Source: Psammoneis japonica
Taxonomy: Eukaryota
Reading direction: 5' to 3'
NCBI GenBank assembly: GCA_008632985.1
Contig: QPGO01000138.1
Span: forward strand, 186,001-228,168
DNA length: 42,168 nt
A model generated the notes under the pieces. The model did no database searches and was not told the DNA's origin. It saw only the letters and a program-made list of their open reading frames with translations. Below are positions 7,501 to 42,168 of this stretch, piece after piece. Position 1 is the first letter of the stretch. The number at the start of each line of letters is the position of its first letter. The position numbers and the translations under genes were made by a program.

Positions 7501-7645
7501 CATACTTCGAAATGCTGCTCTTCAGCATGTTGGAGTCAGCGTTTGCCTTTGCAAGGGCCGCGACGTCGATACCACTGCTGTAAGAACTGCCACTGTTGGC
7601 GACAGCATCGTTGTCATACAACGCGTAACCGCTTTTGGGGGCCAT
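4585..7645 (-). CDS. VTC4: Vacuolar transporter chaperone / polyphosphate polymerase (VTC4-like) with DUF202 TM helices and an extra C-terminal domain; exons 7645-6427 and 6338-4585
   Basis: VTC motifs RSTTKYWV, ITSVYFD, LLRARWYG, IFLELKTHHEKW, SVKER, RAAFQ, LRLTLD, FEVKL, KFSKFLTG; DUF202 motif EPKSFFANERTFIQW followed by three TM segments. GTAAGC...TTCCAG intron 6426-6339 joins SAKSN-D-LRLTLD. Confidence 0.9.
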
Positions 7646-8160
7646 GATGATGCGGCAAAGTCGCCTTGATGCTGCCACTTCTCCGACACGAGGAGGTGAG
7701 TCGAAGAAAAGTGAGCAAAAACAATAATGCCAACGTCCGAATTTCGTCGGCGGGCGGCTGTCGGAATGCGTCTGACGTGGCCTTGGAAACAGAAAAGGCC
7801 TATTATATTTAGTACTGAATATTAGTTGAGAGTAAGCAAATCGTGTAAAGATACCATCAGCTTCTGTACAACAAGAAGCCACGTCACCGTTACATCACGC
7901 TTGCATCACCAAGCAAATTTTGTTAATGGCCTCTGAAGAGCCTGGGACTGGAACAACGACTGAAACTTGATTTTACATCTTTTTGATAGTGAAATGATAA
8001 TATCGTTTTTGAATAAGTCCCACATGAGGTATCGTATACAACGTTGGAGATATCACAAATTCGTAAGACAAACTTTTTCGCCATTTTCAAAAATAAATAT
8101 CGATTTTTTAGGAGCTTCACTGCAGTCTCAGGTAATAATAAGAGAGGAATTTTCGTCTTC

Positions 8161-8409: not shown

Positions 8410-9850
8410 AAGCCGTCAATGTCCTTGGCCTGTTTCTTGTTGGCTTGTCTGTGGAGCAGTCATTTCATGAAGACAACCTGATCTGTCAAGTGTGACTGAC
8501 AATTCATCAAAAACAAAATGTGTGGCCAGCGGCAAAAGCAGCTCATCCTGTGCTGAAAATCCTCTCTTTCAAATGGCCGCTCTCTCCCATCTGTTTCGAC
8601 ACGAAAGCCGTGCTGTGTGGAGGCAGGCCACATCTCTTTGCATGTGACAGGATTGCCACACACACAAAATGTCCTTTTTTTGTTTCTGGCCTGTTCCAGC
8701 TCCAGGTGCTCCGCGCGGGTTCGATTCCCATCATTTGGCAATTTGTGCATTTGGCGCAATTGACTTTTTCCAAATCCGTTTTTTGCCAAATCGAAGGGCA
8801 AGTGTACACTTTGCATGCATTTTTGGGTGTGCACTCACCTTTCGATTTTCGAAACGATCAAAATTGAAGGAGTCAATTGCGCTAAACTTCGCAGAAAATC
8901 GGCCTCTCGCATGATGAAAAGCGGATCACCTGGAGCTGGAGCAGGCCTTCTCTGTCACATTTTCAAAGGCTGCAAGCGCAAAATTGAGTGGGACGGCATT
9001 GTGGCAAGAAGTGACAGAATTGCTGCACACACAAAATGTCCTTTTTTGTTTCTCAGCCACATTTTCGAAGGCTGCAAGCACAAAATTGGCTGAGTGGCGG
9101 TGACAGCCAAAGTCAGCTTGTGCGTGCCATGCCGCCCATGGCAAAAAGTGTGCTTTTCTCACTCATTTCACAACTGGCAAGAGGCAAAATTGCCAGCTTC
9201 AATTTTGTCATTGGAGCCTTGAACAGATTCCAAAACACTGAGCTGCAGCATGACTCTGCGCTGCTTGTCTTTGTCACCCACCATGCTTGGCAGCCCAGCT
9301 TGCAGCCAATGTTGTTGCTTTCACAGAAACTTTCCCCAGATGTGATTGTTGAGCCACACTCTGGCTGTGCTGGCAGAGGGGTGGATGGGAGGGAGTGCCG
9401 AATGCCCCCGCCAAATTTTTGGGTGTCGCCGCTTGCAGCAAGAGCCGCAGCGGCAGCAGTGCATTTCTTGTGCGGCAATCAATGCGGCACACACAGACAG
9501 CCACTGCAGTTGCACCCAAATTGGCATGGAGGGTGCTGACCTGGTGAAAAGCATCTAAAAACAGAGCTGGAGAGGGGCCAAGAAAAATGCACGCGATGCT
9601 CTGCTTTTGCTTTTTTGCAGCAGGCTTGCTGCCGGCTGAATTTTGTGCGAGCTTGGCTGGGAGAGAGAAGACGAGGTGCCTGCCATCACAACCTGGCTGT
9701 CCAAACTTGTGACTCTTCTGCTGCGACCTTCTTTCCATTCAAAGTCTCGTTGCAATTACGCAAGCAGCGCTCTCTGCAGGCCGACTGTGGCTGTTGTCAT
9801 GGCACAGTGCGCTTCTCCAACAACTGCGAAAACATGGCATGGGGCCCACA
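8410..9850. repeat. TpA-depleted repeat block 1
   Basis: Only a handful of TA by eye; contains the MITE family A copy and an internal direct repeat (about 8640-8990 vs 9010-9090). Confidence 0.85.
8688..8947. mobile_element. MITE family A, copy 1 (260 bp, about 24-bp TIR, 4-bp TSD TTCT)
   Basis: Left end GGCCTGTTCCAGCTCCAGGTGCTC, right end GATCACCTGGAGCTGGAGCAGGCC, flanked by ttct/ttct. An empty-site paralogue at about 9045-9070 has a single ttct. A second copy lies at 20622-20881. Confidence 0.9.
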
Positions 9851-10160
9851 ACGAGGAATCATATTATTATCCAGTGTTTAATAAAATTATTAGCCTAACT
9901 TGCCAACTCAACGGAAATCGCGGATGGTTCGGTGCGTTTTTTCCCGCCATTTTTTTTCCCGGGCCAGGGGCCGACAGTCCAAGGAAAGATCTAATCAGGA
10001 AATCACCTGTCCTGTATTCAACTATTTTAGTATCCATGTCGGCGGAATCCGACGTGTCAAGCAATCTGAAATCGAAATCAACCAGTCAACTTGCACTCCA
10101 TCGAGGTGAGAAGAGGCGGCGACGCGCTTGAGAACAGTTAGTCAACACGTTCCGCAGATC

Positions 10161-11049
10161 ATGGTAGACACAGCGGAACTTTCCGAAGACAGTGGCTACG
10201 AGATGGGTGAGCCTCAACTGAGTGAGTATGAGAAACAACGACTCGAACGGATTGCACGGAATAAAGAGTACTTGAAGAGCATCGGACTGGAACCAATCGC
10301 AACGCCAAAGCCGAAACCAAAAAAGAAAAAGCGTCCCACGATAGTCGACCTTACACCGAGTCGCAAATCGAAGCGGCTCCAAAAGGACAACGAGTCGCTT
10401 GTCAAGCTGTCATATGAAAATGACGATGATACCAAATGCGTCTCTCAAGACATTGGACATGATTTTGCAGAAGAACAAGAAGCGGAAAAGCCCAGGCAAT
10501 ACGAACATAGAAAAGCAGTATCTGTGAATCTCGAAGAGTGGCAGCTATCGAAGGAACAGAACGAATCTTTGAAGCAGAGCTTTCGTGAGAGTGTTGGCGA
10601 CCACTACTTGCTCAAGATGAAGGTGCGCTAAGTCTATTATTGTTTTTCAACTCTATTCATTTTCAGCTCACACTTCTCCCTTTTCAATACAGGAATTTCT
10701 CTTGAAGCACGACAACAAACGCGGAATCTCAAAAGAAAACGCAAGAAGAGTGATTAATACAATCAAGAAGTTGGCTCGTGGGGAAGGCATTCGATACGAG
10801 TCCAAACAGTACGGATGGCCAACCGGTTGCTACTTTCAGAAAGGCAACCCCATTACGCCGCTTTCAGATATTCCAGCGCTCATGGTTGAAGCCCAGGAGT
10901 GCGAAAATGAGTGGGGAAGAGACAGGGGCAATGGATGGTTGTTGAAGCATCCTTTGATGAAGCTCCTGTTGTTTCAGCAATTCGTGCTGACTTATCCGGA
11001 GTTTCTCAAGGCAGAGTGCCAGTTAAGCAAGGAAGAGCAGGAGTTGTAA
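10161..11049 (+). CDS. Hypothetical nuclear protein; exons 10161-10622 and 10693-11049
   Basis: LSEYEKQRLERIARNKEYLKSIGL helix (a motif type seen at the N-termini of WDR76/CDCA7-like proteins), Lys-rich NLS-like stretch, in-frame GT...ACAG intron. Start codon uncertain. Confidence 0.7.
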
Positions 11050-11471
11050 GAAAAATGAGTCTATGTGTTTTATTTGTTATTAGGGCGTTATCCTTTAACT
11101 GCTCGTCAATGATGTTTAAGATAGAAAGACCGGGAATAGGTCACCTCAGCCAAGTATGCAAGTTTTTGTTCAATGGGAGCTTTCATGAATCCTTTTCCAT
11201 GGGATCTCGGATGAAAACTTACAGAGGCTTCCTTCCTCTAGCTCTTTAGATCGCGTCTAGAACACTCTCTACAAGTGAAACTGGGGTTCCTCAGACACTA
11301 AGAAGCAATGCAGCAACCAATGCAAAAGTGCAAGGACTAAGTTTTCAGATGTTGACGATTGAAATCGTGGCCATTCGTCAGTCAACTCAAATCACGGGTG
11401 CTGAAAGGTAGAGAGCATTCGAAATGTCGAAAAGTGCCCGGCTCGTTTTGCTTGAGTTCATCTACTAGAAT

Positions 11472-12832
11472 TTAATCCACATCGTCGTAATCGGCGGCGG
11501 ATCCAACTTCATTTGAAGCAGACGGTGCTGGAAGCGCCAGAACTTTCTCTTGCCCCCCAAGACTGTTCGCAACCATGGCATCACTGCTTCCCTCTTTTGT
11601 ACCCTCTTCATCACGCCGAAGATACTGTACGCATTCATTGATTCGTTCCGACACATCTTCATGCTCCTCCACCATGTCGGCCCATTTCAAAATGACATAG
11701 ACACGCTGCAGTCTCAGTCTTTCTCGCGACTTCCGTCCCGTGGCGCACAAGAGCAAAATAGATTCGACAAGAAAGAGCCTTGTCAAATGGTCTGGCTCAC
11801 GCACCTTGTCGGGGCCCTCCAACCACAAATCGGGATCCAAACCACGCTTTTCATCCACATCAAGCTCTTCTGGTCCGGCGAGTGGGTACAAAATGTGCTT
11901 GACAATCTTTACTTCCTCAATGAGCCACCACGCCGAATCCGATTCCAAACAGCAATTCTTGACGACACCCGCAATACTCCGTCTTCGTAGTACATTTGTC
12001 GATCGTAACTGAGTCAAAATGGCTTGCAACACAGAAGACGACGACAATTTTCCCTTGTCCTGTTGATGAATTCGTAAAACAAATCGTCGACCAGCCTCCA
12101 ATTGAGTTGCATTCATAAGGACGGATGCAAAGTGTTGGTAAGGATCGTAATGACTGCTAGCGAGATCGAGCTCTGTTTTCAACTCCGATTCTGGAATTTC
12201 TTCTATATACTGATCCGATAAAAATCGTGACAAGAGTAGCTCCATGGTTGGTTTGGTGGGTAACGCCTTGTCGTTTCCCTGCGACGACGGCACAGCCTCG
12301 TCGGGGAGGGTACGCCCCGTCAATTCCACCGCACCACGTTCGGTCCTCGTCATGTTTACCAAGAGAGCCATGGCAAAATTGACTCGCTTTTTCCAATTCT
12401 CAAGCGTTTCACCTTCGTCGTCGTCGGGTCGTGACAGTGTGATTTCCACCATGCGTCCGGTTGCGCCGCTGCTGAGCAAGTCTTCCACACATTGGGCGGC
12501 ACTCGGACCGTGCGACGACAAGTGAACCAAGCATGTGAGAGAGTTGAGTCCTGCGGTATCAGGATGGGAGGATAATTTTGCTAGAGGAGCAACCACTCCG
12601 TGCTGTATCATTTTGGCCATGCCGTCACTGTGAAATGAATAAAATACACACGTTTGTGAGTTGCACTTTTAATGCACCAGCTGGGAAAATGTTCTTTGAG
12701 AAAACTCAGCACGTACATGTCCTTGACTGCCATGGCAGCTTCGGTCGCAGCTAACCGAAGATCCTCTCGATCCGATGTTAAGAACCCAATCAAATCGGTG
12801 TACACTGATGCTTCATCTTGACCGGCAGACAT
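11472..12832 (-). CDS. HGH1: HGH1 homolog (FAM203, DUF383/DUF384; eEF2 chaperone); exons 12832-12717 and 12627-11472
   Basis: Motifs LLVNMTR, HFASVLMNATQLEAGRRF, RRRSIAGVVKNCC, ILYPLAGPEE, REPD, LLLCAT..SRERLR...VYVIL. GTACGT...TCACAG intron 12716-12628 is in frame. Confidence 0.9.
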
Positions 12833-12859
12833 GGTGACTAATTGTTCATAAGGCTATCG

Positions 12860-14960
12860 AGGCGCAACGGCGGAAAAGTGAGACGCACCTCTTCTCGTCC
12901 CACTTTCCACTTTTTTTGAAAATCTGAGTGGCCTCCGTGCGTTGTTTTCCCCCGGCAGCCACGCGCGACAGCGCGCGGTGACGACTGAAGGCCATGGTGC
13001 CTGATGGTGCTCTCAAACTCGGTAAACCGTGCTGCTGCTTCTGTGCCAAGCTGTTGTCCGCGAAGCAGCGAGCGCTCTCCAATCTCTCAACACTTTTGAA
13101 GGAAGCTCTGCAGGGAGTGCATTGGCATGGTTTGCAAGAGTGGCAGTTGTCGATGAATCGAACTCTCAAAACATGATGTGGGGCGCTGGCTGGTGTGCAG
13201 GCAGGCGGAGGTGGTGCCCACAAGAGCGGAGAGAGTGCATGCAAAAATGTGTCTTGGGAGATTTTCATGTGGCAAAAATGAACATTTCAACAAGATCTGA
13301 GCTTCAAAATTTGGCAGCAAATCTCTGACAGCAATTCCCAGCTGATCATCATGCAGCCACAGACAAAGCCACACAAACACAACGTTCTCACAGTTGAGAC
13401 GGCTGTGGCAACAACATGATTGAAGCAACAAACGGCAAATTTTTTTCTTGGGTGTGGCAACACAAAACAAAAAAACAGAGGGGGGGGTGCACACTTGAGT
13501 GGGATCTTGCTCATGGCTGAAACACAGTTGCAAGTCAAGGCACAGCAGACAGATGGTCTTGACTCTCCATCTGCTTCACCCCCAAAGACCAAAGATTGTC
13601 TGAGAGACAGGCCTCTTGACAGGGGGCACGCAAGCTCAGAGGAGATGAGATGGCTGTGGCAACAAGATTGAAGCAACAAACAGCCATTTTTCCCCTGGGT
13701 GTCGGAACACAAAACAAAAGAACAGGGGGGGTGCACACTCAAATGGGGTTTTGCTCATGGCTGAAACACAGTTGCAAGTCAAGGCACAGCAGACAGATGG
13801 TCTTGACTCTGCCTCTGCCTCGCCCCCAAAGATTGTCTGAGAGACAGGCTTCTTGACAGGGGGTGCACAAGCTCAGAGGAGATGATGAGAGATCCCCCTC
13901 TGCATCTGCTTGGTCAGGTGACAAACACAAGTGACAAACAAGCCCCCCATTGCCAACCCTGACTCTCACAGCAGCTGCGCTCAAAGGAGCAATTTGTGGG
14001 GGGCTGGGAGAGATGGTGCATGCCTGGCTTTGTAACCTGCACTTGGAGAGCATCTCCAAGTCATGGGTGCAAGAACAGAGCTGATGGTGCATTTTAGAAC
14101 AACAAGTGTGCAGCGGTCACATGCTGGCTGCATGAGAAAGAATGTGCCTCAGCTCTGTCTTCTCAAACACATTGAGATGGATGGGCAACGAGAGCTCAAA
14201 ACCTTGAGAATTGAGTGCCAGGTGGGAAGAAAAATGTCAAGAGCTTGAGACAGAGCACAGGATTTAGCGCCTCTGGAGTGCCAAGGCAGGTGCAATTGCT
14301 CAGTTGACTGCTGTTCCAGACCAAAGGATGCCTGTTGCAAGAGCAGCAATGCAGCCAGCTCTTGACAGAGCCATCGTGTGAGATTGCCAGCTGCTTGGCA
14401 CTGACAGGCACATCAAAGTCAGCATCAAGAAGATCCCAGATGTCCAACAAGCGGATCATGGTCAGATTTATTTTGAGGGAGATGAGCCTGTCTGATGTCC
14501 ACAGCAACTGACACTCCCCAGTGTGGCTTTCCATTTAAAGCTCCAGCCTGCTCCACCGAAGTTGACCTGAGCATGATGTGCACCCATGTGGGTGGTTTCT
14601 GCAGTGCCCTTGGCACACACCACTTCTTGCACCACAAACTTGCCAGTGTGTGACTGATGGTCATTTTCTGGTTGTGGCTGCACTTGAGGTGATGGTTCAT
14701 GATGAATCACATGACCTCGCTGATGTTGAGAGGGCAGTGCCCATCTGTGTGTTCATTAAGAGATGCAGAAGCATGGCAATGGCCATCAAGATCACTGCTC
14801 AGAAGCTGCTAATTTGTGTGCTGGAAACACAATTGACGAACCCGTCAAAGAAGCACACGAACAAACGGAACATCTCACCTCTTGCCGATTCATTGCCGCG
14901 CCGAAAATTTTGACCTGCGAGAACAATTGTCACGTCTCAACCATGTGTCGGGACACGAGA
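12860..14960. repeat. TpA-depleted repeat block 2
   Basis: Fewer than about 10 TA in about 2.1 kb by eye; spurious Tyr-free ORFs on both strands. Confidence 0.85.
13401..13890. repeat. Tandem duplication, unit about 250 bp (13401-13651 and 13652-13890)
   Basis: Both units start ggctgtggcaacaa and share gctcatggctgaaacacagttgcaagtcaaggcacagcagacagatggtcttgactct and caagctcagaggagatga. Confidence 0.9.
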
Positions 14961-15111
14961 GTCCCAATTCAAATAGAGTCTTTTTAACAAGTGATAAAAA
15001 ATGATTGCTACTTTACTGCGGTTAATGCAAAGCAGAGTTGTGACGAGAAACGGAGACAACAGCCAACAAACAGAAAAGATGGTGCAAAACCAATTGTTGA
15101 GCTCAGACCGG

Positions 15112-18100
15112 TCAAGCGGTCATATGGACGTCGTTCGATCGTTTCATAGGGGTTAGACGAGATGCCAGTCCCATGCTTGCCTGTCGTTGAGGCCGACCAC
15201 TGGCATTTAATCGCTCCTCAGCTTCGATACTCTCCTCTCCTTTGATTTCAGTCGATAGCGTACCCGGCGCTTCCTTTTCTGGGTTAACCTCAGATTGGGG
15301 AGCTCTCTCATTTGCGCCATTGTTTTGAAATGGATATTCGATCTCTTCTTGGTTCTGCTTACGTCGCTTGCGGTAAAAGTACCAGCCAAACAAGGCAGCC
15401 AAGACAGCAACAACGCCCAAGACAACACCGATAATGATTCCAGTGTTGCTGCTGCTGTCATCAGCAGTGTCGATTGGTGCATTGGTGGGTGCAACATTCG
15501 GTGCATTGGTGGGTGATATTGGTTCTTCTTCTATTGTGCCACTTTCGACGACCACATCTGTCCCGACCTCAGATTCGGCATCAACTGATGCCTGCATCGC
15601 GGGAAAATCTAAAAGGCTTTCCCTTTGTTCAGCAATTACTTCAGCGGAATCTGGGGCAAGTCCCGAAAAGACCGCTCTTCCAGCAAAAGGCACAGTCACC
15701 ATATCTTGCAACTCACGGCGGTCGGCTTCCTCGGTAAGAAGTATAATGTGTGTCAAGTTGCTGAACTCTGTGACCAGTCTACTGAACAGATAATCCCCTA
15801 TGACCGCTGTCAGCGCCACCCTATTTAAATCTTCTGCTGAAATCGTCAGAGTAAAGTTCTCAAGAAGAACCGTGCTATTCACTCCGTCAACAGTCTCTTG
15901 AGTTACAAGTGGCGGAGATGGCTCCGAAGGAGACGTCAACAGTCCGCATCCAATCCTAGTTCCATCCTGGGCATGCACAACCACGGCACGCCCAACATTT
16001 TCCCCGTAAGAAGTACCTGCGTCAATTGGAAAGCTCGTGGTTGGATTGCCATCCGCAGTGCTACCGAAAGTGATGTTAGGAGGGATATTCCAAGGATCCG
16101 GAACCGCACCAGGACCGGTATCTGGCTCCCAGAAGTGGTCTAGCACCAGACTTTCCTCATCGCAAATAAAGCCTCTGTGGATACGAACATCACAATTGAT
16201 GCAGCTTGATTCGACGTCATTGAGATCCAGCATCAAGAGGAGGTCCTGTGAGAGGGTAATGAAGGTGTCGTCAAAGTTGTGATTTGTTGTAACCGTACCG
16301 CCCACATTCAGCGGGCCTGTGTAGCCAGGGAATCTTCCTACTTGAGCGACCAACGTATCCCCCGGTGTCACAATTGTGCATCCTTCGATTTCACGGTCGC
16401 CAATATCGGCGTCGAGAGACAAAAGGTTAGGGTCATCCGACAAGAAAGGAGCAAAATAGCCGTCGCGGTTCAATTCGGGTATAGCTGCAGGAGACAGTGA
16501 GTCCCAATTAGCACATACAGTGGCATCTTGTTCCTCCAGAGCAACGAGCCACGCGCTCGAGAGGTCATCCAGGCTAAACAGGTCATCTACATCCTCTTCG
16601 GAGCCGCCAAACAGTCGCACAATGTCTGACGTAAAGTTTCCGATGCCTCCCGCAGTGTTGATGGGAACAACCAGCTCGCATCCCATCGCACGCATGGCTT
16701 GAGCTGGGACCGCGTCGACCCAGCCACCAAAAGAAATTGAACCATCGCTGATGGGTACCCCAGCGGAAAGGATGGGTTCAGCGGGAGATCGTATGAGAGC
16801 ATCAAACCAGCGTGTCTCTCCAAGTTGTAAGAACCGTTGGGACTTCACATCCGAGAATCGAGCCTTGACTTCGCTTTCAATTTCTGGAGTCCCGGCAAAG
16901 TAACCAAAGCTCATGTCATCCCAAGAAACATCAAAAGACACATTATCACCATTCCTGTAATCAGTTATTGCTGTCTCCCAGACAGCAGCAGAGTTGCCTC
17001 GCACAACAGACGTAGCTATTAGAGTCGGAATTTTTCCGCCAACCACGTCAGTCAAGCGATTCTCAAAAGTTTCTAGAAACGCGGTAATATTGGCTACCCG
17101 AAATCATACAGTCGAGTGGAGGGTTAGACATGCGAGAGCGCCATTGCACGAAGAGGAAATGCCCGTCGACTTACAAGGTTGTCAGGATCGGTGCTGGCGA
17201 TTTCGGTGAAGTTAACGTCGTTCTGTACGAAGTCAAAGAAAACTTTGCTTTGAAAAAATGTCTGGCAGTTCATTCCATTTGAAGTTGATATGCCTTCAAA
17301 AGCTCTATAATCGAGTCCGCGAGTAGGTAGAGCACACTCATCCAAGAGTCGTTCCCAGTCATCCAGGTTGGTGGCACCATAGCCTGCATAGAAGCGCGCC
17401 TGCAAAGACTCTGGTTTGTGAGACAGATAATGCGTGAAGGTAAACCAACTAAGGTCGACCTATTACTACTTACCACAATATCCAGGAGAATCGAAATCCC
17501 CCGAAAGCTCAGAAGGCCCGGGCGCAGCACATTTAACGGTCCGGAAATTTGAAAGCTTGGAACGACATTCTCTCTAAGGTCATTGAAATGAAATTGAGGG
17601 TCTGGAGAATTTATCAGAAGCTGAAGGATTTCGTCATTGAGAAGTGTGGCAATGCTAAGAGAGACAGAGATCGCCCGATCGAAGACATTACTGGTCTCAC
17701 TGTCAAAAATTGCAACCAAATCTTCAATGGCTTGAGTTCGTTGATTCGGGATAATCAATCTTAGCGGGATTCCCGTTCTCACGGCTTCTTCCAGTATATC
17801 CCGAAGAACATTCCCGATAACCTCTTCGAGCGTGAATAGTGTGTCTGGAAGTCCTATGAAAGACTTGAGCATGAAAGCAAGACGAGCACGTCGTTCCTCC
17901 TCCGTGCACTCACGTGATCCGAATAATCTATTTGAGCAGGTTTCGACTCGAGGGTTAAGTGCCATGCTTTCGTACATCCATGAAGAAATAGTTCCGGAGG
18001 AAGCTCCAACAAGCCCTTCAATTGGTCCGAGTTCCTCAACAACTTGCGCTATAAATGCAAAGAGAAAGGAAACGACATGGCGAATAAAAATTGAGATAAG

Positions 18101-18458
18101 ATAGCTCTTCTATAGCTGGCCAAAATTAGTGTTTACGACGTAGTTTACTTACCTAGAGCTGTAAAGTGAGCCCAAACGCGAGGTCCATTTCCTTTTAAAC
18201 GGGAGAACGATGCAATTGAGAACACAAGGAAGCCAAAGTAACGCTCTGATGTAGCTTTCGTCAAGGCCACTCACCGCGAAGTCCTGCACAAACGGGCAGG
18301 GATGACGGCTGCAAGACCCTGGATTCCCGATCAAAATGGAAATCGCCACTATTTCTCAAATGGCTGCCTGATACATACCCTTGCACTGTGGTAGCCAATG
18401 AGATGATCAAGAAGCTCAATCCGGAACTGACGAGAACAAGGCGCGACAAGACCGGCAT
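15112..18458 (-). CDS. Type I membrane protein: signal peptide, patatin-like GxSxG domain, Cu/Zn-SOD-like domain, stalk, TM helix and cytoplasmic tail; exons 18458-18275, 18191-18153, 18048-17474, 17399-17175, about 17090/17061-15112
   Basis: Spliced N-terminus reads CAGLRGNGPRVWAHFTALAQVVEELGPIEGLVGASSGT; SOD-like segment IHRGFIC...DHFW...DPW...GRAVVVHAQDGTRIGCG; TM GIIIGVVLGVVAVLAALFGWYFY followed by RKRRK. The acceptor of intron 4 is unresolved because the canonical AG gives the wrong phase. Confidence 0.75.
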
Positions 18459-19207
18459 CGTCTTGGCTGATAATTTCCTTTTTTGAAGAACGTTTCTTGT
18501 TGTTCTCAAAGCCGCTTCAGGTGCACTAATTTTCTCGATACGGATGATCTCTGATTTGTGAATTGCAAAGAGAGCGTTTGCGATTGAGAGGAGCCCCAGA
18601 GCTTACTTATCTTCACTAAACCAATGTTTCACTACGCGCAACCTGCAACCCTGCTTCTCGAACGATTTCTGGGCTTCGGTCGTCGGTCGCGAGTCCCCAA
18701 AGCTCCCAAGTTTCCCGCGTTGTTAGTCGTGGGTTCGGTGCATGACGTCAGACAAATCGCAGCAGTCGTACGTACAGTCCGAAGTCATCAGTTCGCTTCC
18801 GTGAAAGAAGAGCAAAAACTGCATTAAAACTAACTCGCACTGCGAGGAGGCAACAGAGCTGTGCAACTTGAAGCCATTGTAATCTGCTCATGACCAACAA
18901 CTGCTCGAAGTGCCTTTGAATCAGTGCCTGGCACTGCCAACTGATCGGCCAAGGCAACGTGGGTCATGTGCGCCACGCTGACACCCATGCTCTCCAGTGC
19001 ATTCCAGAGGAAAAGCAAAGATTTCTGTTTTCCCACAGAGATGTGTGCTTGTGCTTCATCCAATTGCAAACACTTCCACTGAACAGTTGCACAGCAGACC
19101 ACAAGCAATCTGGGTCGACTGCTGCTGTCACTCACAGCTTTGGCATGGAGAGCATTTAAAATGTTGGAGCTCTTCGTTGTTGTCGTTGGAGTTGGAGTTT
19201 TTTGTTT

Positions 19208-19314
19208 TTCATTCTTCATTCTTTGTTCTTTGTTCTTTGTTCTTCGTTCTTCATTCTTCATTCTTCATCATTGTTGTTGTTGTTGCTGTCGTTGTTGTTG
19301 TTGTTGTTGTTGTT
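19208..19314. repeat. Heptamer array TT(CA/TG/CG)TTC followed by a (TCA/TTG)n trinucleotide tract
   Basis: Units ttcattc, ttcattc, tttgttc x3, ttcgttc, ttcattc x2, then tcatcattgttgttg. Confidence 0.9.
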
Positions 19315-20599
19315 GATGTGCTCCAGTTCCCAGGTGACGCACAAAACGACAATCAATTTTGAATGTAAATTGTGCGTCTTTAAGTGCGCAGAGCATTTTC
19401 ACATGAAACACTCAAGCGGATTGGCTTTTGCAGGCGTCCACAAGTGTGAACATTCAAATGGTTTTTTGTGGGGCATTCAAGTCCTCATGGGACATGTGTC
19501 ATCATCTCTCAACAACAAAAGAGTGAAATTGCAACAATTCAAAAACCACAAGCAACAAAGTGCTGAACCAAGACATTTTTTGCTGAGCCAGCATCCAAAG
19601 GGCAATTGATTTTTGCTGAACCAGTGCTGAATCAAAGCTCAATTTGTCCTGTCTCAATGAATGCAACATCACGCATGGCTGTCCTGTCCATCTCAGTGAA
19701 TGCAACGTCGCGCATGCAGCAAAGCTCCAAAGCCATCCCAGATTCTTTCTTTTTCATGGTGCACACGATGCTTCTTCTTTCCTGTGACCTTTTCCTTCGT
19801 AGCATGGAGTGCTCTTCAATGGTTGGGAATGACTTCATTGCCACCTTGTTTGTCATGTCTGGCGAGTTTTTGCCCGAGGCTCTCAATGTCCGAGTGAAAG
19901 GAAAAGCCAAAAGGCACAAGAAGAAAGGTGTGTTTACAATGTCGTCATCTGCTGTGTCATCTTGTGTCACATCATGTCATGTCGTGCCGCATCACATGGG
20001 GCCCCACTGTCACATTGTGCCACATCACATGACATGATGTCATGCGACATGACATGCTTGACATCACTTGGAGACAAGACATTGAAGATGAAGTCACTGG
20101 AACATCATTGTTTTCACACATGACGTCATCTTCACTGCGACATCATGTCACTTTTTGAGCAAAAAATGTCCCACTTTCCGAGTCAGCCGTGCTGAGCCGC
20201 TGAACCAATGGTTTGTTTTTTACATTGACTTCCTCAGTGGACTCAATGCTGATTGCACGTCAGTGGATTTACACTGCAATTTCTTTGCATGCAGAAAACC
20301 CACCAAGCAGCATCGTAGAAAGATGTGTTTGGGCAACATCCAAACAACGGCAATGTTTTCGCCGAAAATCATCCGTTGTGTCACGAATCTTTTAACACAA
20401 TGAAAAACACACTGTAGACAGCACAATGACAATGATGTTGCAACACTCACACAAGTTTTGTTGGTGTTGCAAAACATTTGCACTTGGACAAATCTGTGCT
20501 TTTGGTGGTGAAAGTTCGATCGCAAGTCAGGGGCCGCGCAAAAATCACGCAAATGTTGTTTTTGTGCACGATTTGGTTCGCGCGGGGCTGGAACACGTC
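19315..20599. mobile_element. MITE family B, copy 1, interrupted by an insertion of about 720 bp (about 19501-20222)
   Basis: Ends GATGTGCTCCAG and CTGGAACACGTC, flanked by tgtt/tgtt; segments 19315-19500 and 20223-20599 align to 24069-24634. Confidence 0.85.
19940..20150. repeat. Degenerate pentamer satellite (tgtca/catca/catga-like)
   Basis: tgtcatcttgtgtcacatcatgtcatgtcgtgccgcatcacat...cacatgacatgatgtcatgcgacatgacatg. Confidence 0.65.
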
Positions 20600-20621
20600 T
20601 GTTGTTGTTGTTGTTGTTGTT

Positions 20622-20881
20622 GTCCTGTTCCAGCTCCAGGTGCTCCGCGCGGGTTCGATTCCCATCATTTGGAAATTTGTGCATTCAGCGCAGTTGACTT
20701 TTTCCAAATCCGTTTTTTGCCAAATCGAAGGGTGAGTGTGCACTTTGCATGCATTTTCGGGTGCACACTCACCTTTCGATTTTCGAAATGATCAAAATTG
20801 AAGGAGTTGATTGCACTAAACTGCGCAGAAAATCGGCCTCTCGAGTGATGAAAAGCAGAGCACCTGGAGCTGGAACAGGCC
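20622..20881. mobile_element. MITE family A, copy 2 (260 bp), inserted in a (TTG)n tract
   Basis: Ends GTCCTGTTCCAGCTCCAGGTGCTC and GAGCACCTGGAGCTGGAACAGGCC; collinear with 8688-8947; flanked by tgtt/tgtt. Confidence 0.9.
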
Positions 20882-20894
20882 TGTTGTTGTTGTT

Positions 20895-20925
<31 letters not shown>

Positions 20926-21020
20926 TTGCTGTTGCTGTTGCTCTTGTTGTTCTTGCTGCTCTTGTTGTTGTTCTTGTTGTTGCTCTTGTTGTTGTTGCTG
21001 CTGTTGCTGTTGTTTTGTTG
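20882..21020. repeat. (TTG/CTG/TTC)n trinucleotide microsatellite
   Basis: tgttgttgt...gctgctgttg...ctcttgttgttcttgctgct; source of the spurious poly-Q, poly-L and poly-N ORFs. Confidence 0.95.
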
Positions 21021-22495
21021 CCAAATGTGTCTCGCCAGCACTTGCATGGCCACATGTCAGCCTCAAGTCACGCTGGCGGGGCAAGTGATCTTGCACACAG
21101 CTCACAAGATGTGCGTCAGGAGCTCAGTTGTTTTTCTGGCAAAGAACTTCTGTCAAGGAATTGGGGAATTGTGCGCGTTTCACAGTGCTCCCTTTTTTGC
21201 TGGCATTGCAAAGGTCAACTTCCATGAAGTGCAGCATCGAAGCAGAGAATCGTGTGACAACTTTGTGTGTTCACACTGAGCTCCCAGTTTTGGCAGTGAT
21301 CAGTGATGAAGGCACTGCTTGTTCCACTTTCTTCAAATGCTGGTTGACCTCAATCATCCGCTGTTTGAGACACACCCGCCAATCACAGCTGCTTTGATCA
21401 TGTCCAGTTGGCTGTGTCGTGGCTGAGAACTTCTCACCTGTGTCCTTTGGCACTGCAAAGTGCAGACTGTGCTGCTGCGGTGCACTTCATTTCCAGCCCG
21501 GTTTGCAGTGCATTTGTTTTTGGCAGATCTGGCCTTTGACTGCAGGCCACAGAGTCATGATCTGAAAGGCAGCACACACTTCTTGTGGTGAGCAACATGA
21601 AAGCATCTGTTGCTGGCATGTTGCAGGATGGGTTGAGCCAAGCTGCTTTGTCTGCAATGTCCTGGGCTGGAGAGTGTGTTTGGTTGAGAGTTTTTGTGTC
21701 CTTCTGAAGGATTGTGGTTTTTGGCAGCTCCAAGATCATTTTGTTTTAGAGCCAACCTCCTTTGTGGGAAATTTCCCACCAGCTGCCAGTCGTTGAGCCG
21801 CGCATGCCCAAAACAAGACTCCATGCTTGCCTCCCACAGCACCAACTCTTTCACATCAGTGAAAGAACTCACCAGCTTCAACTTTTGTCTCGAGACAAAG
21901 AGCCATGGCAAACATGAAGGCAGTGCCACAGACTCCAATCTTTTCTTCAGCAGGGGTGTGTGTGTGTGTTGGTGAACAAGTCTGTCAATGACCTTCTGCC
22001 ATTTGTGCTTCTCGAGACAAGGCTGGTCATGATGATGCTGAGGAGTGAAGTGGCACCCACAATCAAAGTGACATTCACAACTGCCTCTTGAGCAGCGTTG
22101 GCAGCAAAGGCATGCCTGGAGATGCCTTCCAGATGATGACAACATTGTCATCAATTGTCTTGGCTGCATTTGGTTGGAATGCCAACAATTGTTGTTGTGC
22201 AGGCGAGCAGCTCCGGGCATGTCCAAAATTCAAGCCATCGATCCCATCAACTCTGATCTTTTTCCATTGAAATAGCTCTCTGTACTAGCCATTGCGCATT
22301 ACATGTTTTACTGTATAAGAATCAAGCTTTGCAAAACACTAGTGCTCTACAATTTTTTCTTAATTTCTATCAAATAGGATTCATTCCTTACAAAGTCGGC
22401 CACCTACGCAGCTCCGCATGCCCCATGCTTACCTTGAAAGGAACAAACCCCAATACTTGATAATCGCTGGATTCGTTTCTTCGCCACCTCTTAAA

Positions 22496-25850: not shown

Positions 25851-26090
25851 AGCACTATTGAGAAGCAAAGAATCATCGTTCGTCGAGTCTCATAATGGCG
25901 AATGAAGAACAACAAGCCACAAATCATCAAAGGAGGGAAAATTTGAACTTTTTTTGGTGCTTGCGCAGGCGCTTTGGGGGGTTCGCATTTTTTGTGCGGT
26001 GTTCAAGTGTGTCATGTCGTTATTTATTTACAAAGTGCTGAATGACAATATGGAGAGTCGCAACAATTATTGTGAAATGGAAAATGGCAG

Positions 26091-28899: not shown

Positions 28900-31800
28900 C
28901 ACAGTTTGAGTCGTGGCCAGTTTGGCAGCAAAAAAAGCTCGAGCGTCTGAATGCAGGCGCAACAGCTGTTGGATCTTCTTTTGTGCCGCATCACCGGGTT
29001 ACAGTGTGCGCAGTGTCATTGCTGACCCATGCTGGTTGCACATTTTGGGCTCTCATCTGATTGTGTTAAAGCACTCCCAGTCTCGCTCAACGGCCGCACA
29101 GCCTCCCCCCAGTTGCTGCCCTGAGCTCTGATCTGTCACGCCAGTGCTGCCGTGTTGGCGACAGCAGCACCACAGGCTCTCACCCACCAAGGCAAGTGCT
29201 CAGGATGCACACACATGCACAAAAGGAAATTGTTTTTCTTTGCTTTTCATCTGCATCATCATGTGTCAAGAAGACAGAGCTGCGCTTGTTGGCGTTTCTC
29301 GGCGTGCAAAAATGTTCTGTGCCCCAAGCCGAAGGCCCGAGACAGCCCAGCCATCCCCTTGCTCTCCCCATGCATTTTCAACAACTGGCATTGATGACAA
29401 GGAAAATGAATGCTTGTCAGATCCAGAACAAGTTGGAAATGCAGGTGGAAGTGGCTGGGTGATGTCATTTTCTGTCAGTGCTCTTGATGCCCGGACAACG
29501 CTCGCACACAAAGTCTCAAGCACACCGCTGACTCTTCTCAAGACCAGCCAGCAACAATGTCTCCAGCCACATCTTTTCTTCTCAGCACTCTTTGGCACCT
29601 GGTGCTGTTGTTGTCAGACTCATCTTGGGCACACAGGAGGAGGCATGGTGAAGACCAGAGTGGCCAGATCTCCACCAGGAGCTTCTTCTCACTCTTTGGC
29701 ACCCAGCGCTGTTGTCACCAGACACATCTTGGGTGGACAATGAGTGCCCTGTCAGGTTGTTGAGGCTCTCCTTTTGCTGCTCATCTCCACCCTGTGCACA
29801 CGGTGCCAGTTTCAGAGACCAGCTCTTCTTTGGGTGGCGGCTCTTTTCAGCTCTTTTGTGCTCCTCTTGTGCCTTGAGCTGGCTGACCAGCTGACTTCCA
29901 TCATTGGTGCAGCCCCAAGAAGGCACTCTGTGTTGCTTTGCAGCATCATGCAAAGTCAGTGTCAGCATGAGCTTTGCAGCACTTTTTGTTGTGCATTTTT
30001 TGTCAATCACAGCATCAAAAACAATTTTTTGGCACCACAAAGTCAACTTGTTGACTGCCTTGACAGCTGCACAAAAGCAATCATTGTTGCCCTGGCATCA
30101 CACACCTCAACAATGATGGCTCACACACTTGCATGGCTGCTTCATCTGCAGACCTGCAGGTGGCACCCTCAACACATTGTCCTGCCTTGCAAGTGACAAG
30201 TGTGACACCAGGGCAGAAGCTTGTGTTCGTTGAACTTGCCTGGACATCATGGCTTGTGCTCCTTGCACTTGCAGCTGGTGCACAACTTGTGCACATGTCG
30301 ATGCACCATGTTGCATGCCATGGCTCCAAATTTTGGGAGATGAGGAGGATGTGCACATGTCCACAATGCTGCAAAAAGCATGACTGCAGATGGGCTCAAG
30401 AAAAGCAGATGACATGGCTGAGTTCTGTGGTGGTCGCAATGCACAAAAGTGAGTGTTTCAAACAAAGATGCATGTGATTGTTGACGAAGCTGGTGTCAGA
30501 CATTGTGCAGCAGCACCATGCTCAACATGATGCAGGTGCAAGCACTCGCATCTCTGTCTGGAAGGAGACAGCACACAGCACAAACACACATGCTTTGAGC
30601 AGTGCAAATGAGTGGTCACCAAGCAGTCAAGTCAAACCCAGACAAACCAGCACATGGAAGCCAGCTTTTAAATCCAACAGGCAAGTGTTGGGCTGGCTTT
30701 GTCAAGAGTGGTGGGAGAGCCCTGGGTGTGTGGCCAGGGTTGTTGTTTTTTCTGCTGCAAATTGTGCTTTTTCCACATTGCAAAGAACAGCATGTTTTGA
30801 CAAGCATGTCAAGTCTGGCAGTCAGACATGCTGTCGTCCATGTGTCACATTGCAGTCCCAGAAATTGACTTGTGCAAATGTGCTGTGACCTTGACAAAAA
30901 ATCCAACATGTGCACGTCATGTCACCTTCTGTCATGTCAGTTGATTTCCACTTCTCTGGTGTGCCTGACCTTCACCCAGGGGAGGGACATTTCTCATGGT
31001 GTCTCAAGGTTCTTGACAGCTCTTTGTTTGTGCAGGAGTGACTGGAGTTTGCTGGGTGCAATTGGGTGCTGCATGTCTTTTGAACAAAAGCAGCAGAGAA
31101 GCAGCCAGTCAAAATGCCCAAAACAACACCTCATTTCACAATGAGCAAAAAAAAAGGACAAAGCAGCAGAAGAATCTGGTTGGCTCATTTTTGCACAAAC
31201 TCAACATCAACAGCTCTTCCAGCAGGATGTGGCTGGTTGCAGCAGCAGCCTGCTTTGAACCTGCATGTGGGGCCAATTTCGTGTCGCGCACCTCAACTTT
31301 GCAGGCCACACATGACAGCATTGTCATTTGTTTTTTCTGTGCACAGCTGCACACTCAAAAGTTGCAGCCACACTGAGAACAATGCAACATGTGCATGATG
31401 CAATGAAAAAAAAGACCTTGTGCACTGCAATGGAAAAAGGTCACAAAAGAAAAAGTGGAGTTTTGCTGCAGAGAAAAAGTTGTTCAGTGCAGCCGAGTCT
31501 TTTTCAGTGAGCAAAGTGCGCAAATGAGAAATTGTGTTGCAGTTGAGTCACATCCAAACAAACACAATCATGTGGAAGCCAGCAGGGAAACCCACCAGGT
31601 GTCAGGCTGTTTTTGATGAGAACAGTGAGAACCTTGGCGCGGGTGCGTGTGGCCGCGGATTTTTCTTGGTCAACACAGTCAAGTCTTTTTCAGTGACTTC
31701 AAACACTTGCAGAGTTACTTTGGCCTGCCACAGTCCTGGAGTTGCATTGCTGCAAGCTTTGGCCAGCTTGTCTTTTTTGAGAGAAAGAAAGAGGCTCTTT

Positions 31801-32150
31801 TCATGACCATGTGCAAAAAGAGCAAGCCAGCACCAGAGGGGCAGTCGTCCTTCTTCTTCTTGCTTGGCTGAACTTTCGGAATCTCCCAATGAACTTTCTG
31901 GCAGTCATTTCACCTGGCTTTTTCGTGGATTGTTGCATGTGCCATTTCTGTTTCTGAATGGGTCTGAGAGGGAAAACATGTTCAGAGGTGACTGCGCAAT
32001 CATCCATGAGAGCAGTGATGCGAGGTCGTCTCGAGGAAACAACAAACCGCGAATCATCCTCGCGCATCTGTCCGTTTGGTCGCTCTCCCCACGAATTTTT
32101 TTGGAATTTTGTCGAAAACCGCGGCCGCATTGAAGTGTGACGCAGACCTT
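28900..32150. repeat. TpA-depleted block 5
   Basis: Between about 29070 and 32150 I find only two TA (about 30669 and 31716); TA returns abruptly at about 32154 (ccgtatcgaatagacgtaga). Confidence 0.9.
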
Positions 32151-32299
32151 CCGTATCGAATAGACGTAGATTTCTACAGGGAATTGAGTTTTCAAAAAAT
32201 CGGCACTTCTGATGCGATAACGGTATTTTGCTGATTGCCCTCGACGGTTTATGTTGCTGTTATTCATTGTTGTTTTTCTTGTCACGACCTTTATACACC

Positions 32300-38700: not shown

Positions 38701-39120
38701 TCAATTGACTTCCCTTGTCTGTGGCTGACCGCAAGAAAGACTTGATGTTTTTTCGTACACTTCCATCCCCTTGTAGAACCAATCCGGTTCTTGCAGTTGA
38801 TCTCCCTCAGCACAGAGCTTCACAATGCCTGCTCTGAATTCAGGGGGATTGCGAAGAGCCGGAGCCGATCCGTTGGATGCAAAGAAATCCAGTTCCAACA
38901 CTGTCTTGCCCTTGCTCACTTTTTCTTCTTGAGTGATCCTTAAAATCTCCTTCATGATTGGGACAAAGTTCGCAGTGACAAATGAAAAGATCATGCGCTG
39001 CGTGCCCGTGGTTGCTTTCTTGAATGTTCTGTTGGCTGGATCACAAATCGTTTTGTGTGCTTTCCAATCAGCTGCCTGCGCAAGAGCGAATGCAACCACA
39101 CCACGTGAGACCATCATGCT
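38570..39120 (-). pseudogene. Decayed MYND zinc-finger protein gene
   Basis: MMVSRGVVAFALAQAADWKAHKTIC matches the MYND C-terminal Q..DWK.HK..C pattern with upstream Cys ligands lost; it is followed by a plausible globular region (VLELDFF...APALRNPPEF...EPDWFYKG) and then frameshifts. Confidence 0.65.
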
Positions 39121-42100: not shown

Positions 42101-42168
42101 ACTCACCCTTGTCCCATTTTGAAAATGCAATTGCTGACCATGCATTTCTGTCATCTCTTTGATGTCGT

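What the first reader, a model, noticed from the sequence alone, without database searches (positions are those of the whole stretch)
8688..20881. Two MITE-A copies differ mainly at TA/TG/CA/CG dinucleotides
Seen (copy 1 vs copy 2): catt-TG-gcg / catt-CA-gcg; ggg-CA-ag / ggg-TG-ag; agtg-TA-cact / agtg-TG-cact; ggtg-TG-cactc / ggtg-CA-cactc; agt-CA-att / agt-TG-att; aaa-CG-atc / aaa-TG-atc; ttg-CG-cta / ttg-CA-cta. Reciprocal TG/CA pairs require a palindromic ancestor (TA or CG) mutated independently on opposite strands after insertion. Many CpGs are intact in both copies (ccgcgcgggttcga, tcgattttcg), which favours TA as the ancestor.
Basis: partly seen in the sequence, partly recalled or inferred. 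Interest (0 to 1): 0.8.

Follow-up and report, generated by a model that had tools for sequence, protein, structure and literature searches.

The report
TA-erasing mutation recorded by transposon pair
Two copies of a small hairpin transposon in a diatom-like genome differ mostly where a TA step has been rewritten to TG or CA, a rare targeted mutation pattern so far described in print for only one other alga.

Summary
The two 260-nt MITE-A copies (8688-8947, 20622-20881) differ at 21 columns. 14 of the 16 transitions lie in pyrimidine-purine (YR) steps, including four TG/CA doublet swaps; 0 of 200,000 random placements gave four.

- CpG decay at the rate seen at the 16 visible CpG sites predicts 0.17 swaps, not 4.
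- The element is a hairpin, and the partner arms still read TA at two of the swap sites and never CG.
- In 958 contigs of the same family, TA exceeds CG at three of four swap sites, while true CpG sites stay 63-100% CG.
- Both copies sit in tracts where TA is almost gone (68 seen, 1117 expected) and CG is partly gone (358 of 934). TG and CA are in matching excess, and the copies hold the only TAs for 1.1-1.3 kb around them.

"Independently, after insertion" is not shown. Copy 1 carries the family's commonest state at all four sites.

This is the TpA-to-TpG/CpA hypermutation signature reported for Bigelowiella natans (2026 preprint), here with slower CpG decay. The scan has already noted it many times on other pieces of this genome. 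The enzyme is unknown.

The parts
8688..8947 (+). MITE-A copy 1. It is a 260-nt fold-back element with 22-nt terminal inverted repeats at 8688-8709 and 8926-8947. It has 2 TA (17.1 expected) and 15 CG (15.3 expected).
   Evidence: It folds as a full-length hairpin: -66.4 kcal/mol, z = -8.1, and 0 of 200 shuffles fold as well. The family's depth rises at 8688 and falls after 8947, with loose ends at 8687/8688 and 8947.
20622..20881 (+). MITE-A copy 2, 260 nt, inserted in a (TTG)n run. It has 1 TA (17.4 expected) and 13 CG (15.0 expected).
8684..8687 (.). Target-site duplication TTCT of copy 1; the second copy is at 8948-8951. Copy 2 has TGTT at 20618-20621 and 20882-20885.
   Evidence: The paralogous empty site at 9011-9096 holds a single TTCT.
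8752..8753 (.). Swap site 1: TG in copy 1, CA in copy 2 (20686-7). Its hairpin partner at 8883-4 and 20817-8 reads TA in both copies.
   Evidence: In the family TA minus CG is +0.11.
8799..8800 (.). Swap site 2: CA in copy 1, TG in copy 2 (20733-4). No TA or CG state was detected here.
   Evidence: In the family CA is about 86% and TG about 12%; TA minus CG is -0.02.
8805..8806 (.). Residual TA in copy 1 (palindrome GTGTACAC), TG in copy 2. It is the hairpin partner of swap site 3.
   Evidence: In the family C is 44% at the first letter and G 49% at the second; TA minus CG is +0.07.
8830..8831 (.). Swap site 3: TG in copy 1, CA in copy 2 (20764-5).
   Evidence: In the family TA is at least 28% and CA at most 13%.
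8874..8875 (.). Swap site 4: CA in copy 1, TG in copy 2 (20808-9).
   Evidence: In the family C>T is 28% and no A>G row is listed, so TA is about 24%.
8883..8884 (.). TA kept in both copies (also at 20817-8). In the family C is 50% at the first letter and G 15% at the second.
8410..9555 (.). TA-poor tract around copy 1, with 2 TA against 72 expected. Both TAs lie inside the MITE. CG o/e is 0.51.
18881..22272 (.). TA-poor tract around copy 2, with 12 TA against 238 expected and CG o/e 0.47. Between 20416 and 21746 the only TA is the MITE's.
9011..9096 (+). Paralogous empty site. It is a tandem duplicate of the DNA flanking copy 1 and lacks the element. It differs from the filled site by one CA/TG swap and two CG/CA changes, among others.
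29068..32153 (.). Example of a fully erased tract: 2 TA against 198 expected, and 56 CG against 187 expected. Other tracts are at 13024-14900, 24050-25900 and 37133-42168.

Best explanation
MITE-A is an abundant 260-nt fold-back DNA transposon with 22-nt inverted ends and a 4-bp target duplication. Both window copies sit in non-genic tracts that are subject to two mutation processes, and both processes end in TG/CA.

1. A fast one rewrites TpA to TpG or CpA. This is an A:T-to-G:C transition on either strand.
2. A slower one is CpG decay to TpG or CpA, most simply by deamination of methylated cytosine.

The four TG/CA swaps between the copies mark sites that were TA, either in the founding element or as an intermediate. 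Those sites were resolved to opposite outcomes in the two lineages.

Shown here:
- the swaps themselves;
- the restriction of transitions to YR steps;
- TA rather than CG as the palindromic state at these sites;
- the near-complete loss of TA around both copies;
- faster loss of TA than of CG within the same element.

Inferred, not shown:
- that a targeted enzyme activity causes it, such as an adenine deaminase acting at TpA as proposed for Bigelowiella natans, or a thymine-modifying enzyme;
- that it serves to disable mobile or silent DNA;
- that the changes happened after these two insertions.
For: Count model
- The pair shows 12 CG/CG and 4 CG/(TG or CA) sites. This gives a per-copy CpG loss of 0.14 and predicts 0.17 TG/CA sites.
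- P(at least 4) = 2.8e-5.
- The TA classes (1 TA/TA, 1 TA/TG, 4 swaps) fit a per-copy loss of about 0.84.
- Log-likelihood is -4.78 with all four swaps from TA and -8.19 with all four from CG.

Hairpin arms
- Aligned as four versions, swap site 1 reads TG, CA, TA, TA.
- Swap site 3 with its partner reads TA, TG, CA, TG.
- The other two sites read only TG or CA. CG appears at none of these four sites.

Family data (run X1, 958 contigs laid)
- 33 of the 40 listed variant rows are transitions inside YR steps. The other 7 are all transversions.
- TA minus CG can be read from the marginal letter shares. At the four swap sites it is +0.11, -0.02, +0.28 and +0.24.
- At four other sites it is +0.07, +0.35, +0.41 and +0.16.
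- At sites that are CG in copy 1, CG stays at 63-100%.

Surrounding tracts
- The tracts cover 16,388 of 42,168 bases.
- TA is 68 against 1117 expected; CG is 358 against 934.
- TG is 1834 against 1072; CA is 1776 against 972.
- Total YR steps are 4036 against 4095 expected. So the losses are in-place conversions, not removals.
- The MITE copies hold the only TAs in 8410-9555 and in 20416-21746.

Other repeat pairs
- Five other non-genic repeat pairs in the window show the same classes.
- Pooled with the MITE pair: 34 TG/CA, 14 TA/(TG or CA), 1 TA/TA, 36 CG/CG and 47 CG/(TG or CA).

Published match
Against: - No haplotypes of other copies could be read; only marginal letter shares were available. 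So TA and CG frequencies are bounded, not measured. At 8799-800 neither is detected.
- Outcomes are lopsided at each site: TG to CA is at least 9:1 at 8752-3, CA to TG about 7:1 at 8799-800, and CA to TG over 17:1 at 8874-5. Free, strand-symmetric decay of TA in each copy would give about 1:1. So much of the pattern may be inherited subfamily structure.
- Copy 1 carries the commonest state at all four swap sites.
- The direction TA to TG/CA is not polarised by an outgroup in this window. It rests on the tract composition.
- None of the 128 open frames in the tracts reaches a Pfam cut-off. So here the tracts cannot be shown to be transposon-derived, and the tyrosine-codon test could not be run.
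- Run X1 may be the data the window was assembled from, so it is not independent of the window.
- The likelihood ratio from the pair alone is modest, about 30.
Confidence: 0.75

Rival explanations
1. CpG decay only. The swap sites were methylated CpGs that decayed in both copies, to TG in one and CA in the other. The intact CpGs would be a protected or unmethylated subset.
For: CpG decay does occur. There are 4 CG/(TG or CA) differences, plus CA at 8910-1 derived from a family-majority CG. Tract CG is 358 against 934 expected. TA and CG depletion go together across the 84 windows of 500 bp (Spearman 0.72). Diatoms methylate transposons (PMC9998398, abstract and passages).
Against: - A uniform rate predicts 0.17 swaps where 4 are seen.
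- CG is not in excess over TA at any swap site in the family; at three of four TA exceeds CG.
- The hairpin partner arms read TA, never CG.
- Neighbouring CpGs a few bases away stay 63-100% CG.
Confidence: 0.06
2. Flip-flop in one lineage. The family's commonest states (TG, CA, TG, CA, as in copy 1) are the founding states. Copy 2's lineage went TG to TA to CA, or CA to TA to TG. TA would then be a short-lived intermediate, not the ancestor.
For: Copy 1 has the commonest state at all four sites, and copy 2's states are minor. At 8799-800, 8818-9 and 8836-7 the family shows CA with 8-12% TG and no detectable TA or CG. At 8836-7 the two changes have the same depth and the same 30 contigs, so they are linked.
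Against: - It needs frequent C-to-T or G-to-A changes at CA/TG. No transition outside YR steps reaches the listing threshold (0 of 33 listed transitions).
- TA shares of 24-41% at several sites are high for a short-lived intermediate.
- Net flow in the tracts is away from TA.
Confidence: 0.15
3. Hairpin-driven change. The swaps are compensatory changes that keep the fold-back stem paired, or they result from inversion of the stem-loop.
For: The element is a strong hairpin. In copy 2 the inner stem sites match perfectly, TG..TG opposite CA..CA.
Against: - Pairing is not consistently kept. Copy 2 is perfectly paired at two site pairs and mismatched at two. Copy 1 is perfect at one, wobble at two and doubly mismatched at one (read).
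- Inverting copy 1's stem-loop predicts states that do not match copy 2 at any of the four partner pairs.
- The loop is identical in the two copies and is not reverse-complemented.
Confidence: 0.02
4. Chance or ordinary neutral divergence between two old copies.
For: None beyond the fact that TG and CA are common dinucleotides.
Against: 0 of 200,000 random placements gave four doublets. 14 of 16 transitions lie in YR steps (P = 5e-4).
Confidence: 0.01

Closest known systems
TpA-restricted hypermutation of integrated giant-virus and virophage DNA in Bigelowiella natans (Mettrop et al., bioRxiv 10.64898/2026.01.13.699255; abstract, Results and Discussion read)
   Same: - TpA goes to TpG or CpA on either strand.
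- The effect is regional.
- The long-term footprint is low TpA with high CpA+TpG in runs of 1-kb windows.
- Single-copy DNA can be hit.
- Transposon-type sequences are among the depleted ones.
   Different: - There it was seen as new mutations in mutation-accumulation lines, 230 of 231 at TpA, with no CpG effect reported. Here it is only a footprint.
- Erasure here is far deeper: TA o/e 0.06 in tracts, against 0.45 for their viral region.
- CpG is co-depleted here.
- The target here is a MITE and non-coding intergenic DNA.
- The host looks like a diatom, not a chlorarachniophyte.
Repeat-induced point mutation (RIP) of Neurospora and other ascomycetes (recalled; also as summarised in the preprint's Discussion and in PMC9998398 passages)
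   Same: Dinucleotide-specific transition hypermutation that ruins repeated or mobile DNA and leaves a regional compositional footprint.
   Different: - The direction is opposite. RIP turns CpA/TpG into TpA and enriches TA; here TA is erased.
- Dependence on duplication is not shown here. The low-copy flanks of copy 1 are TA-free too.
CpG decay of methylated repeats, as in vertebrate Alu elements (recalled)
   Same: Copies of one element show TG in one and CA in another at a formerly palindromic step. CpG decay is present here as a second, slower process.
   Different: At the four swap sites the palindromic state is TA, not CG. Most CpGs of the element are intact.

Membership tests
TpA-to-TpG/CpA hypermutation (B. 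natans type) | Runs of at least three 1-kb windows with TpA o/e at most 0.43 and CpA+TpG o/e at least 1.52 (the preprint's cluster criterion) | tested here: met
   Windows 19001-22000 have TA o/e 0.06, 0.08, 0.02 and TG+CA o/e 1.74, 1.79, 1.81. Windows 29001-32000 and 39001-42000 also meet the criterion.
TpA-to-TpG/CpA hypermutation (B. natans type) | Changes are A:T-to-G:C transitions confined to TpA | tested here: inconclusive
   The pair shows 1 TA/TG difference and 4 TG/CA swaps whose palindromic state is TA. The direction is not polarised by an outgroup. CpG transitions also occur.
TpA-to-TpG/CpA hypermutation (B. natans type) | New mutations arise at a rate about 1000 times the genome background | not testable with these tools
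   This needs mutation-accumulation or pedigree sequencing.
TpA-to-TpG/CpA hypermutation (B. natans type) | Targets are foreign or mobile DNA | tested here: inconclusive
   The MITE is mobile DNA, with TIRs, a TSD and an empty site. The surrounding tracts give 0 of 128 frames above a Pfam cut-off. The flanks of copy 1 are low-copy.
CpG decay by cytosine methylation | CG paired with TG or CA between copies, and CpG deficit with TG/CA excess | tested here: met
   4 such differences in the pair. Family CpG sites carry 5-26% TG or CA. Tract CG is 358 against 934 expected.
CpG decay by cytosine methylation | The DNA is actually methylated at CpG | not testable with these tools
   This needs a methylome. 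Transposon methylation in diatoms comes from the literature only.
RIP (fungal) | CpA/TpG converted to TpA, so TA is enriched in the mutated repeats | tested here: not met
   TA o/e is 0.06 and TG/CA o/e is 1.7-1.8 in the tracts. This is the opposite direction.
MITE (non-autonomous DNA transposon) | Terminal inverted repeats | tested here: met
   The 22-nt ends have 0-2 mismatches.
MITE (non-autonomous DNA transposon) | Target-site duplication and an empty site | tested here: met
   TTCT/TTCT and TGTT/TGTT. The paralogous empty site has one TTCT. Copy 2's TSD lies in a TTG run and is weak evidence on its own.
MITE (non-autonomous DNA transposon) | Small, non-coding, many copies | tested here: met
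   260 nt. 958 contigs of run X1 were laid on it, and summed word depth inside is roughly 150-1000 times that of the flanks. The tool warns that depth is not a copy number. The superfamily was not determined.

The most novel reading that the evidence does not exclude
One system, not two, rewrites both palindromic pyrimidine-purine steps (TpA and CpG) to TpG/CpA in silenced DNA. An example would be a dual adenine/cytosine DNA deaminase of the ADAT2 type. The preprint cites such dual activity for the amphioxus enzyme. This would explain why TA and CG loss share the same tract borders and why the total number of YR steps is conserved.
Probability: 0.12. Interest if true: 0.85.

Novelty: new member of a known kind. 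Interest (0 to 1): 0.6.

Why it matters
A TpA-specific, A:T-to-G:C mutator aimed at silent or mobile DNA runs against the usual G:C-to-A:T bias. It is the mirror image of fungal RIP. In print it rests on one 2026 preprint about one chlorarachniophyte.

Finding its footprint in a diatom-like genome, far deeper and alongside CpG decay, suggests the process is widespread among marine algae.

This MITE pair adds three things:
- a within-element comparison of rates: TA lost at about 70-90% of candidate sites, against CG at about 6-24%;
- evidence that low-copy flanking DNA is hit too;
- a very abundant, short, hairpin-shaped reporter family that could be used to measure the process and to find its enzyme.

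I found no paper describing this in diatoms.

Tried and rejected
- Whole genome: none is held for this window, so copies could not be collected from the assembly.
- Metagenome scans with two conserved MITE words. One search gave 0 matches. One search gave 1 match (L001), which the alignment shows is a chance 23-mer in an unrelated GC-rich contig.
- Earlier-findings look-up by sequence: no look-alike stretch.
- Runs X2 and X3: nothing was laid. The tool says this is no proof of absence.
- A profile of the two copies and a degenerate TIR pattern found no further copy in the window.
- Pfam scan of 128 open frames of at least 70 codons in the tracts: none reached a curated cut-off. So codon-level polarisation (Tyr to Cys/His) could not be done here.
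- ARAGORN: no tRNA, despite a B-box-like GGTTCGATTCC in the element.
- Stem-loop inversion and compensatory pairing were considered and rejected on the four-arm alignment.
- Flank-context preference was looked at by eye as the cause of the lopsided TG:CA ratios. It was inconsistent: the palindromic GTGTACAC site is symmetric in the left arm and lopsided in the right.
- Organism: only a lead. The best Atlas cluster for the HGH1-like protein is commonest in Bacillariophyta.
Full report
**What is there**

The repeat finder and a pairwise alignment show two gap-free copies of one element, about 92% identical. Exact ends are 8688-8947 and 20622-20881, 260 nt each.
- The ends are 22-nt terminal inverted repeats with 0-2 mismatches.
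- The target duplications are 4 bp: TTCT/TTCT for copy 1 and TGTT/TGTT for copy 2. Copy 2 lies in a TTG run, so its duplication is weak evidence on its own.
- The DNA flanking copy 1 is tandemly duplicated. The second unit (9011-9096) is an empty site with a single TTCT, which confirms the insertion and its borders.
- The element matches its own reverse complement (E = 4e-27). It folds as one long hairpin: -66.4 kcal/mol, z = -8.1, and 0 of 200 shuffles fold as well.
- ARAGORN finds no tRNA in the window.
- In the one run that holds the window (X1, Logan contigs, possibly the assembly's own data), 958 contigs were laid on the element. Summed word depth is 19,000-67,000 inside against 64-124 in the flanks. 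So the family has probably hundreds of copies; the tool warns that depth is not a copy number.

**The observation**

The copies differ at 21 columns: 16 transitions and 5 transversions.

Aligned pyrimidine-purine (YR) steps fall into these classes:

| Class | Count |
|---|---|
| CG/CG | 12 |
| CG/TG | 2 |
| CG/CA | 2 |
| TG/CA | 4 |
| TA/TG | 1 |
| TA/TA | 1 |

- 14 of the 16 transitions lie in YR-step positions, which make up 116 of 260 positions (P = 5e-4).
- Random placement of the same numbers of changes gave four TG/CA doublets in 0 of 200,000 trials.

**TA or CG?**

Four lines of evidence point to TA.

1. *Counts.* If the swaps came from CpG, the 12 intact and 4 half-decayed CpG sites give a per-copy loss of 0.14. 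That predicts 0.17 swap sites, and P(at least 4) = 2.8e-5. The TA classes (1, 1, 4) fit a per-copy loss of about 0.84. Log-likelihood is -4.78 for all four from TA against -8.19 for all four from CG.

2. *Hairpin arms.* The element is a hairpin, so each copy supplies two versions of each arm. In the four-arm alignment:
   - swap site 8752-3 reads TG, CA, TA, TA;
   - site 8805-6 with its partner 8830-1 reads TA, TG, CA, TG;
   - the other two sites read only TG or CA;
   - CG appears at none of them.

3. *The family.* Haplotypes are not given, but TA minus CG equals the share of A at the second letter minus the share of C at the first.
   - At the four swap sites it is +0.11, -0.02, +0.28 and about +0.24.
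   - It is +0.07 at 8805-6, +0.35 at 8883-4, +0.41 at 8812-3 and +0.16 at 8761-2.
   - Sites that are CG in copy 1 stay 63-100% CG, with 5-26% TG or CA.
   - So there are two distinct classes of site, and the swaps belong to the TA class.
   - 33 of the 40 listed variant rows are transitions inside YR steps. The other 7 are all transversions. The tool did not show 10 further rows.

4. *The surroundings.* See the next section.

**The surroundings**

A 1-kb profile of the window is bimodal.
- Genic blocks have TA o/e of 0.4-0.65 and CG o/e of 0.7-1.3, about 1.0 on average.
- Six non-genic tracts total 16,388 of 42,168 bases.

Dinucleotide counts in the six tracts:

| Step | Observed | Expected | o/e |
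|---|---|---|---|
| TA | 68 | 1117 | 0.06 |
| CG | 358 | 934 | 0.38 |
| TG | 1834 | 1072 | 1.71 |
| CA | 1776 | 972 | 1.83 |
| All YR steps | 4036 | 4095 | 0.986 |

- The TA and CG deficits are balanced by the TG/CA surplus, as in-place transitions would give.
- TA and CG depletion coincide. 27 of the 30 windows of 500 bp with TA o/e below 0.2 also have CG o/e below 0.7, against 2 of the 50 with TA o/e of at least 0.35 (Spearman 0.72).
- Both MITE copies lie inside such tracts and hold the only TAs in them. These are 8805 and 8883 in 8410-9555, and 20817 in 20416-21746.
- The copies are still CpG-rich (15 and 13 CG against 15 expected) but nearly TA-free (2 and 1 against 17 expected).
- Taking the 7-10 candidate TA sites and 17 CpG sites read off, by hand: copy 1 has lost about 5 of 7 TA but 1-2 of 17 CG, and copy 2 about 6 of 7 TA and 3-4 of 17 CG.
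- So TA goes several times faster than CG in the same DNA. The elements are younger than the erasure of their surroundings, or less exposed to it.
- The immediate flanks of copy 1 have low word depth (64-124) yet are TA-free. The process is therefore regional and not confined to multi-copy DNA.
- Five other non-genic repeat pairs in the window show the same classes. Pooled with the MITE pair: 34 TG/CA, 14 TA/(TG or CA), 1 TA/TA, 36 CG/CG, 47 CG/(TG or CA), 1 CG/TA.
- By the same hand formula (n1 squared over 8 n0), CpG decay explains about 11 of the 32 swaps in the four pairs that have intact CpGs.

**What is not shown**

- Copy 1 carries the family's commonest state at all four swap sites.
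- Copy 2's states are minority states: at most 8%, about 12%, at most 13%, and under about 4% because no row is listed.
- The TG:CA ratios at each site are lopsided, where free symmetric decay would give about 1:1.
- So part of the pattern is probably inherited from source copies that were already mutated, or one lineage passed through TA. 'Independently, after insertion' remains open.
- The direction TA to TG/CA rests on tract composition, not on an outgroup.
- None of the 128 open frames in the tracts reaches a Pfam cut-off. The tracts cannot be called transposon relics here, and codon tests were not possible.
- No other copies could be fetched: no genome is held, and the two metagenome scans found nothing usable.

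**Mechanism**

The best-supported reading has two processes.
- The fast one is a TpA-directed A:T-to-G:C mutator acting on either strand of silent, non-genic DNA.
- The slow one is ordinary decay of methylated CpG.

The chemistry is inferred, not shown.
- Adenine deamination at TpA is what the B. natans authors propose.
- Thymine modification at TpA gives the same outcome, because TA is palindromic. Sequence alone cannot tell the two apart.
- Hairpin compensation and stem-loop inversion were tested on the four arms and do not fit.

**Comparison with what is known**

- The preprint on Bigelowiella natans reports new mutations that are almost all A>G or T>C at TpA, in two integrated viral regions. 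It also reports genome-wide clusters of windows that are low in TpA and high in CpA+TpG (abstract, Results and Discussion read).
- This window meets their cluster criterion.
- It differs in four ways: erasure is much deeper, CpG is co-depleted, the target is a MITE and non-coding DNA, and the host is different. The best Atlas cluster for the HGH1-like protein is commonest in diatoms, which is only a lead.
- Fungal RIP runs the opposite way, so that membership feature is not met.
- Diatoms methylate transposons (PMC9998398, abstract and passages), which makes the CpG part ordinary.
- Four literature searches found no description of this in diatoms.

**Earlier notes of this scan**

Many notes on other pieces of the same genome describe the same TA, and partly CG, erasure. 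They gave me the preprint as a lead. Everything claimed above was tested on this window.

**Verdict**

The timing claim is open.
- This is a new member of a recently described kind of hypermutation.
- On its own it is a small but clean piece of evidence.

Noticed in passing
window 8644-8687 and 9011-9053; 8955-8991 and 9057-9096: The DNA flanking copy 1 is tandemly duplicated, and the second unit lacks the MITE (an empty site). The two units differ by another CA/TG swap and two CG/CA changes, so even this short low-copy duplicate shows the YR-step pattern.
   Followed up: partly
window 19313-19499 / 24067-24250 and 20228-20603 / 24258-24638: A diverged segmental duplication (about 74% identity) inside the TA-free tracts. 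It carries 6 and 12 CA/TG swaps. Its first part starts with a word resembling the MITE-A end, so it may be another MITE family.
   Followed up: partly
window 20882-21020, 19272-19320, 26322-26350: Long TTG/CTG microsatellites inside TA-free tracts; copy 2 is inserted in one. Whether they derive from TTA-type repeats through the same mutation is unknown.
   Followed up: no
window tracts 13024-14900, 29068-32153, 37133-42168: With TAA and TAG gone, only TGA stops remain. The tracts therefore carry many long open frames on both strands (128 of at least 70 codons), and none has a Pfam match above cut-off. Gene finders could miscall these frames.
   Followed up: yes
window 8718-8728: A tRNA B-box-like word, GGTTCGATTCC, lies inside the MITE next to its left end. 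ARAGORN calls no tRNA.
   Followed up: partly
window 4585-7882 (-), 11472-12620 (-), 1696-3370 (+), 32704-33387 (+): The neighbouring genes look ordinary. A VTC-domain protein is split over two open frames. There is an HGH1-like protein (DUF383/DUF384), a reprolysin-like metalloprotease with Dicty_CTDC repeats, and a TBC/RabGAP fragment. Genic TA o/e is about 0.5 and CG o/e about 1.0.
   Followed up: partly
window 8410-9555: The tract holding copy 1 lies between two long open frames that read away from each other: the VTC frame ending at 7882 on the minus strand and a frame starting near 9643 on the plus strand. TA erasure here may therefore cover a shared upstream region rather than an obvious repeat island.
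   Followed up: no
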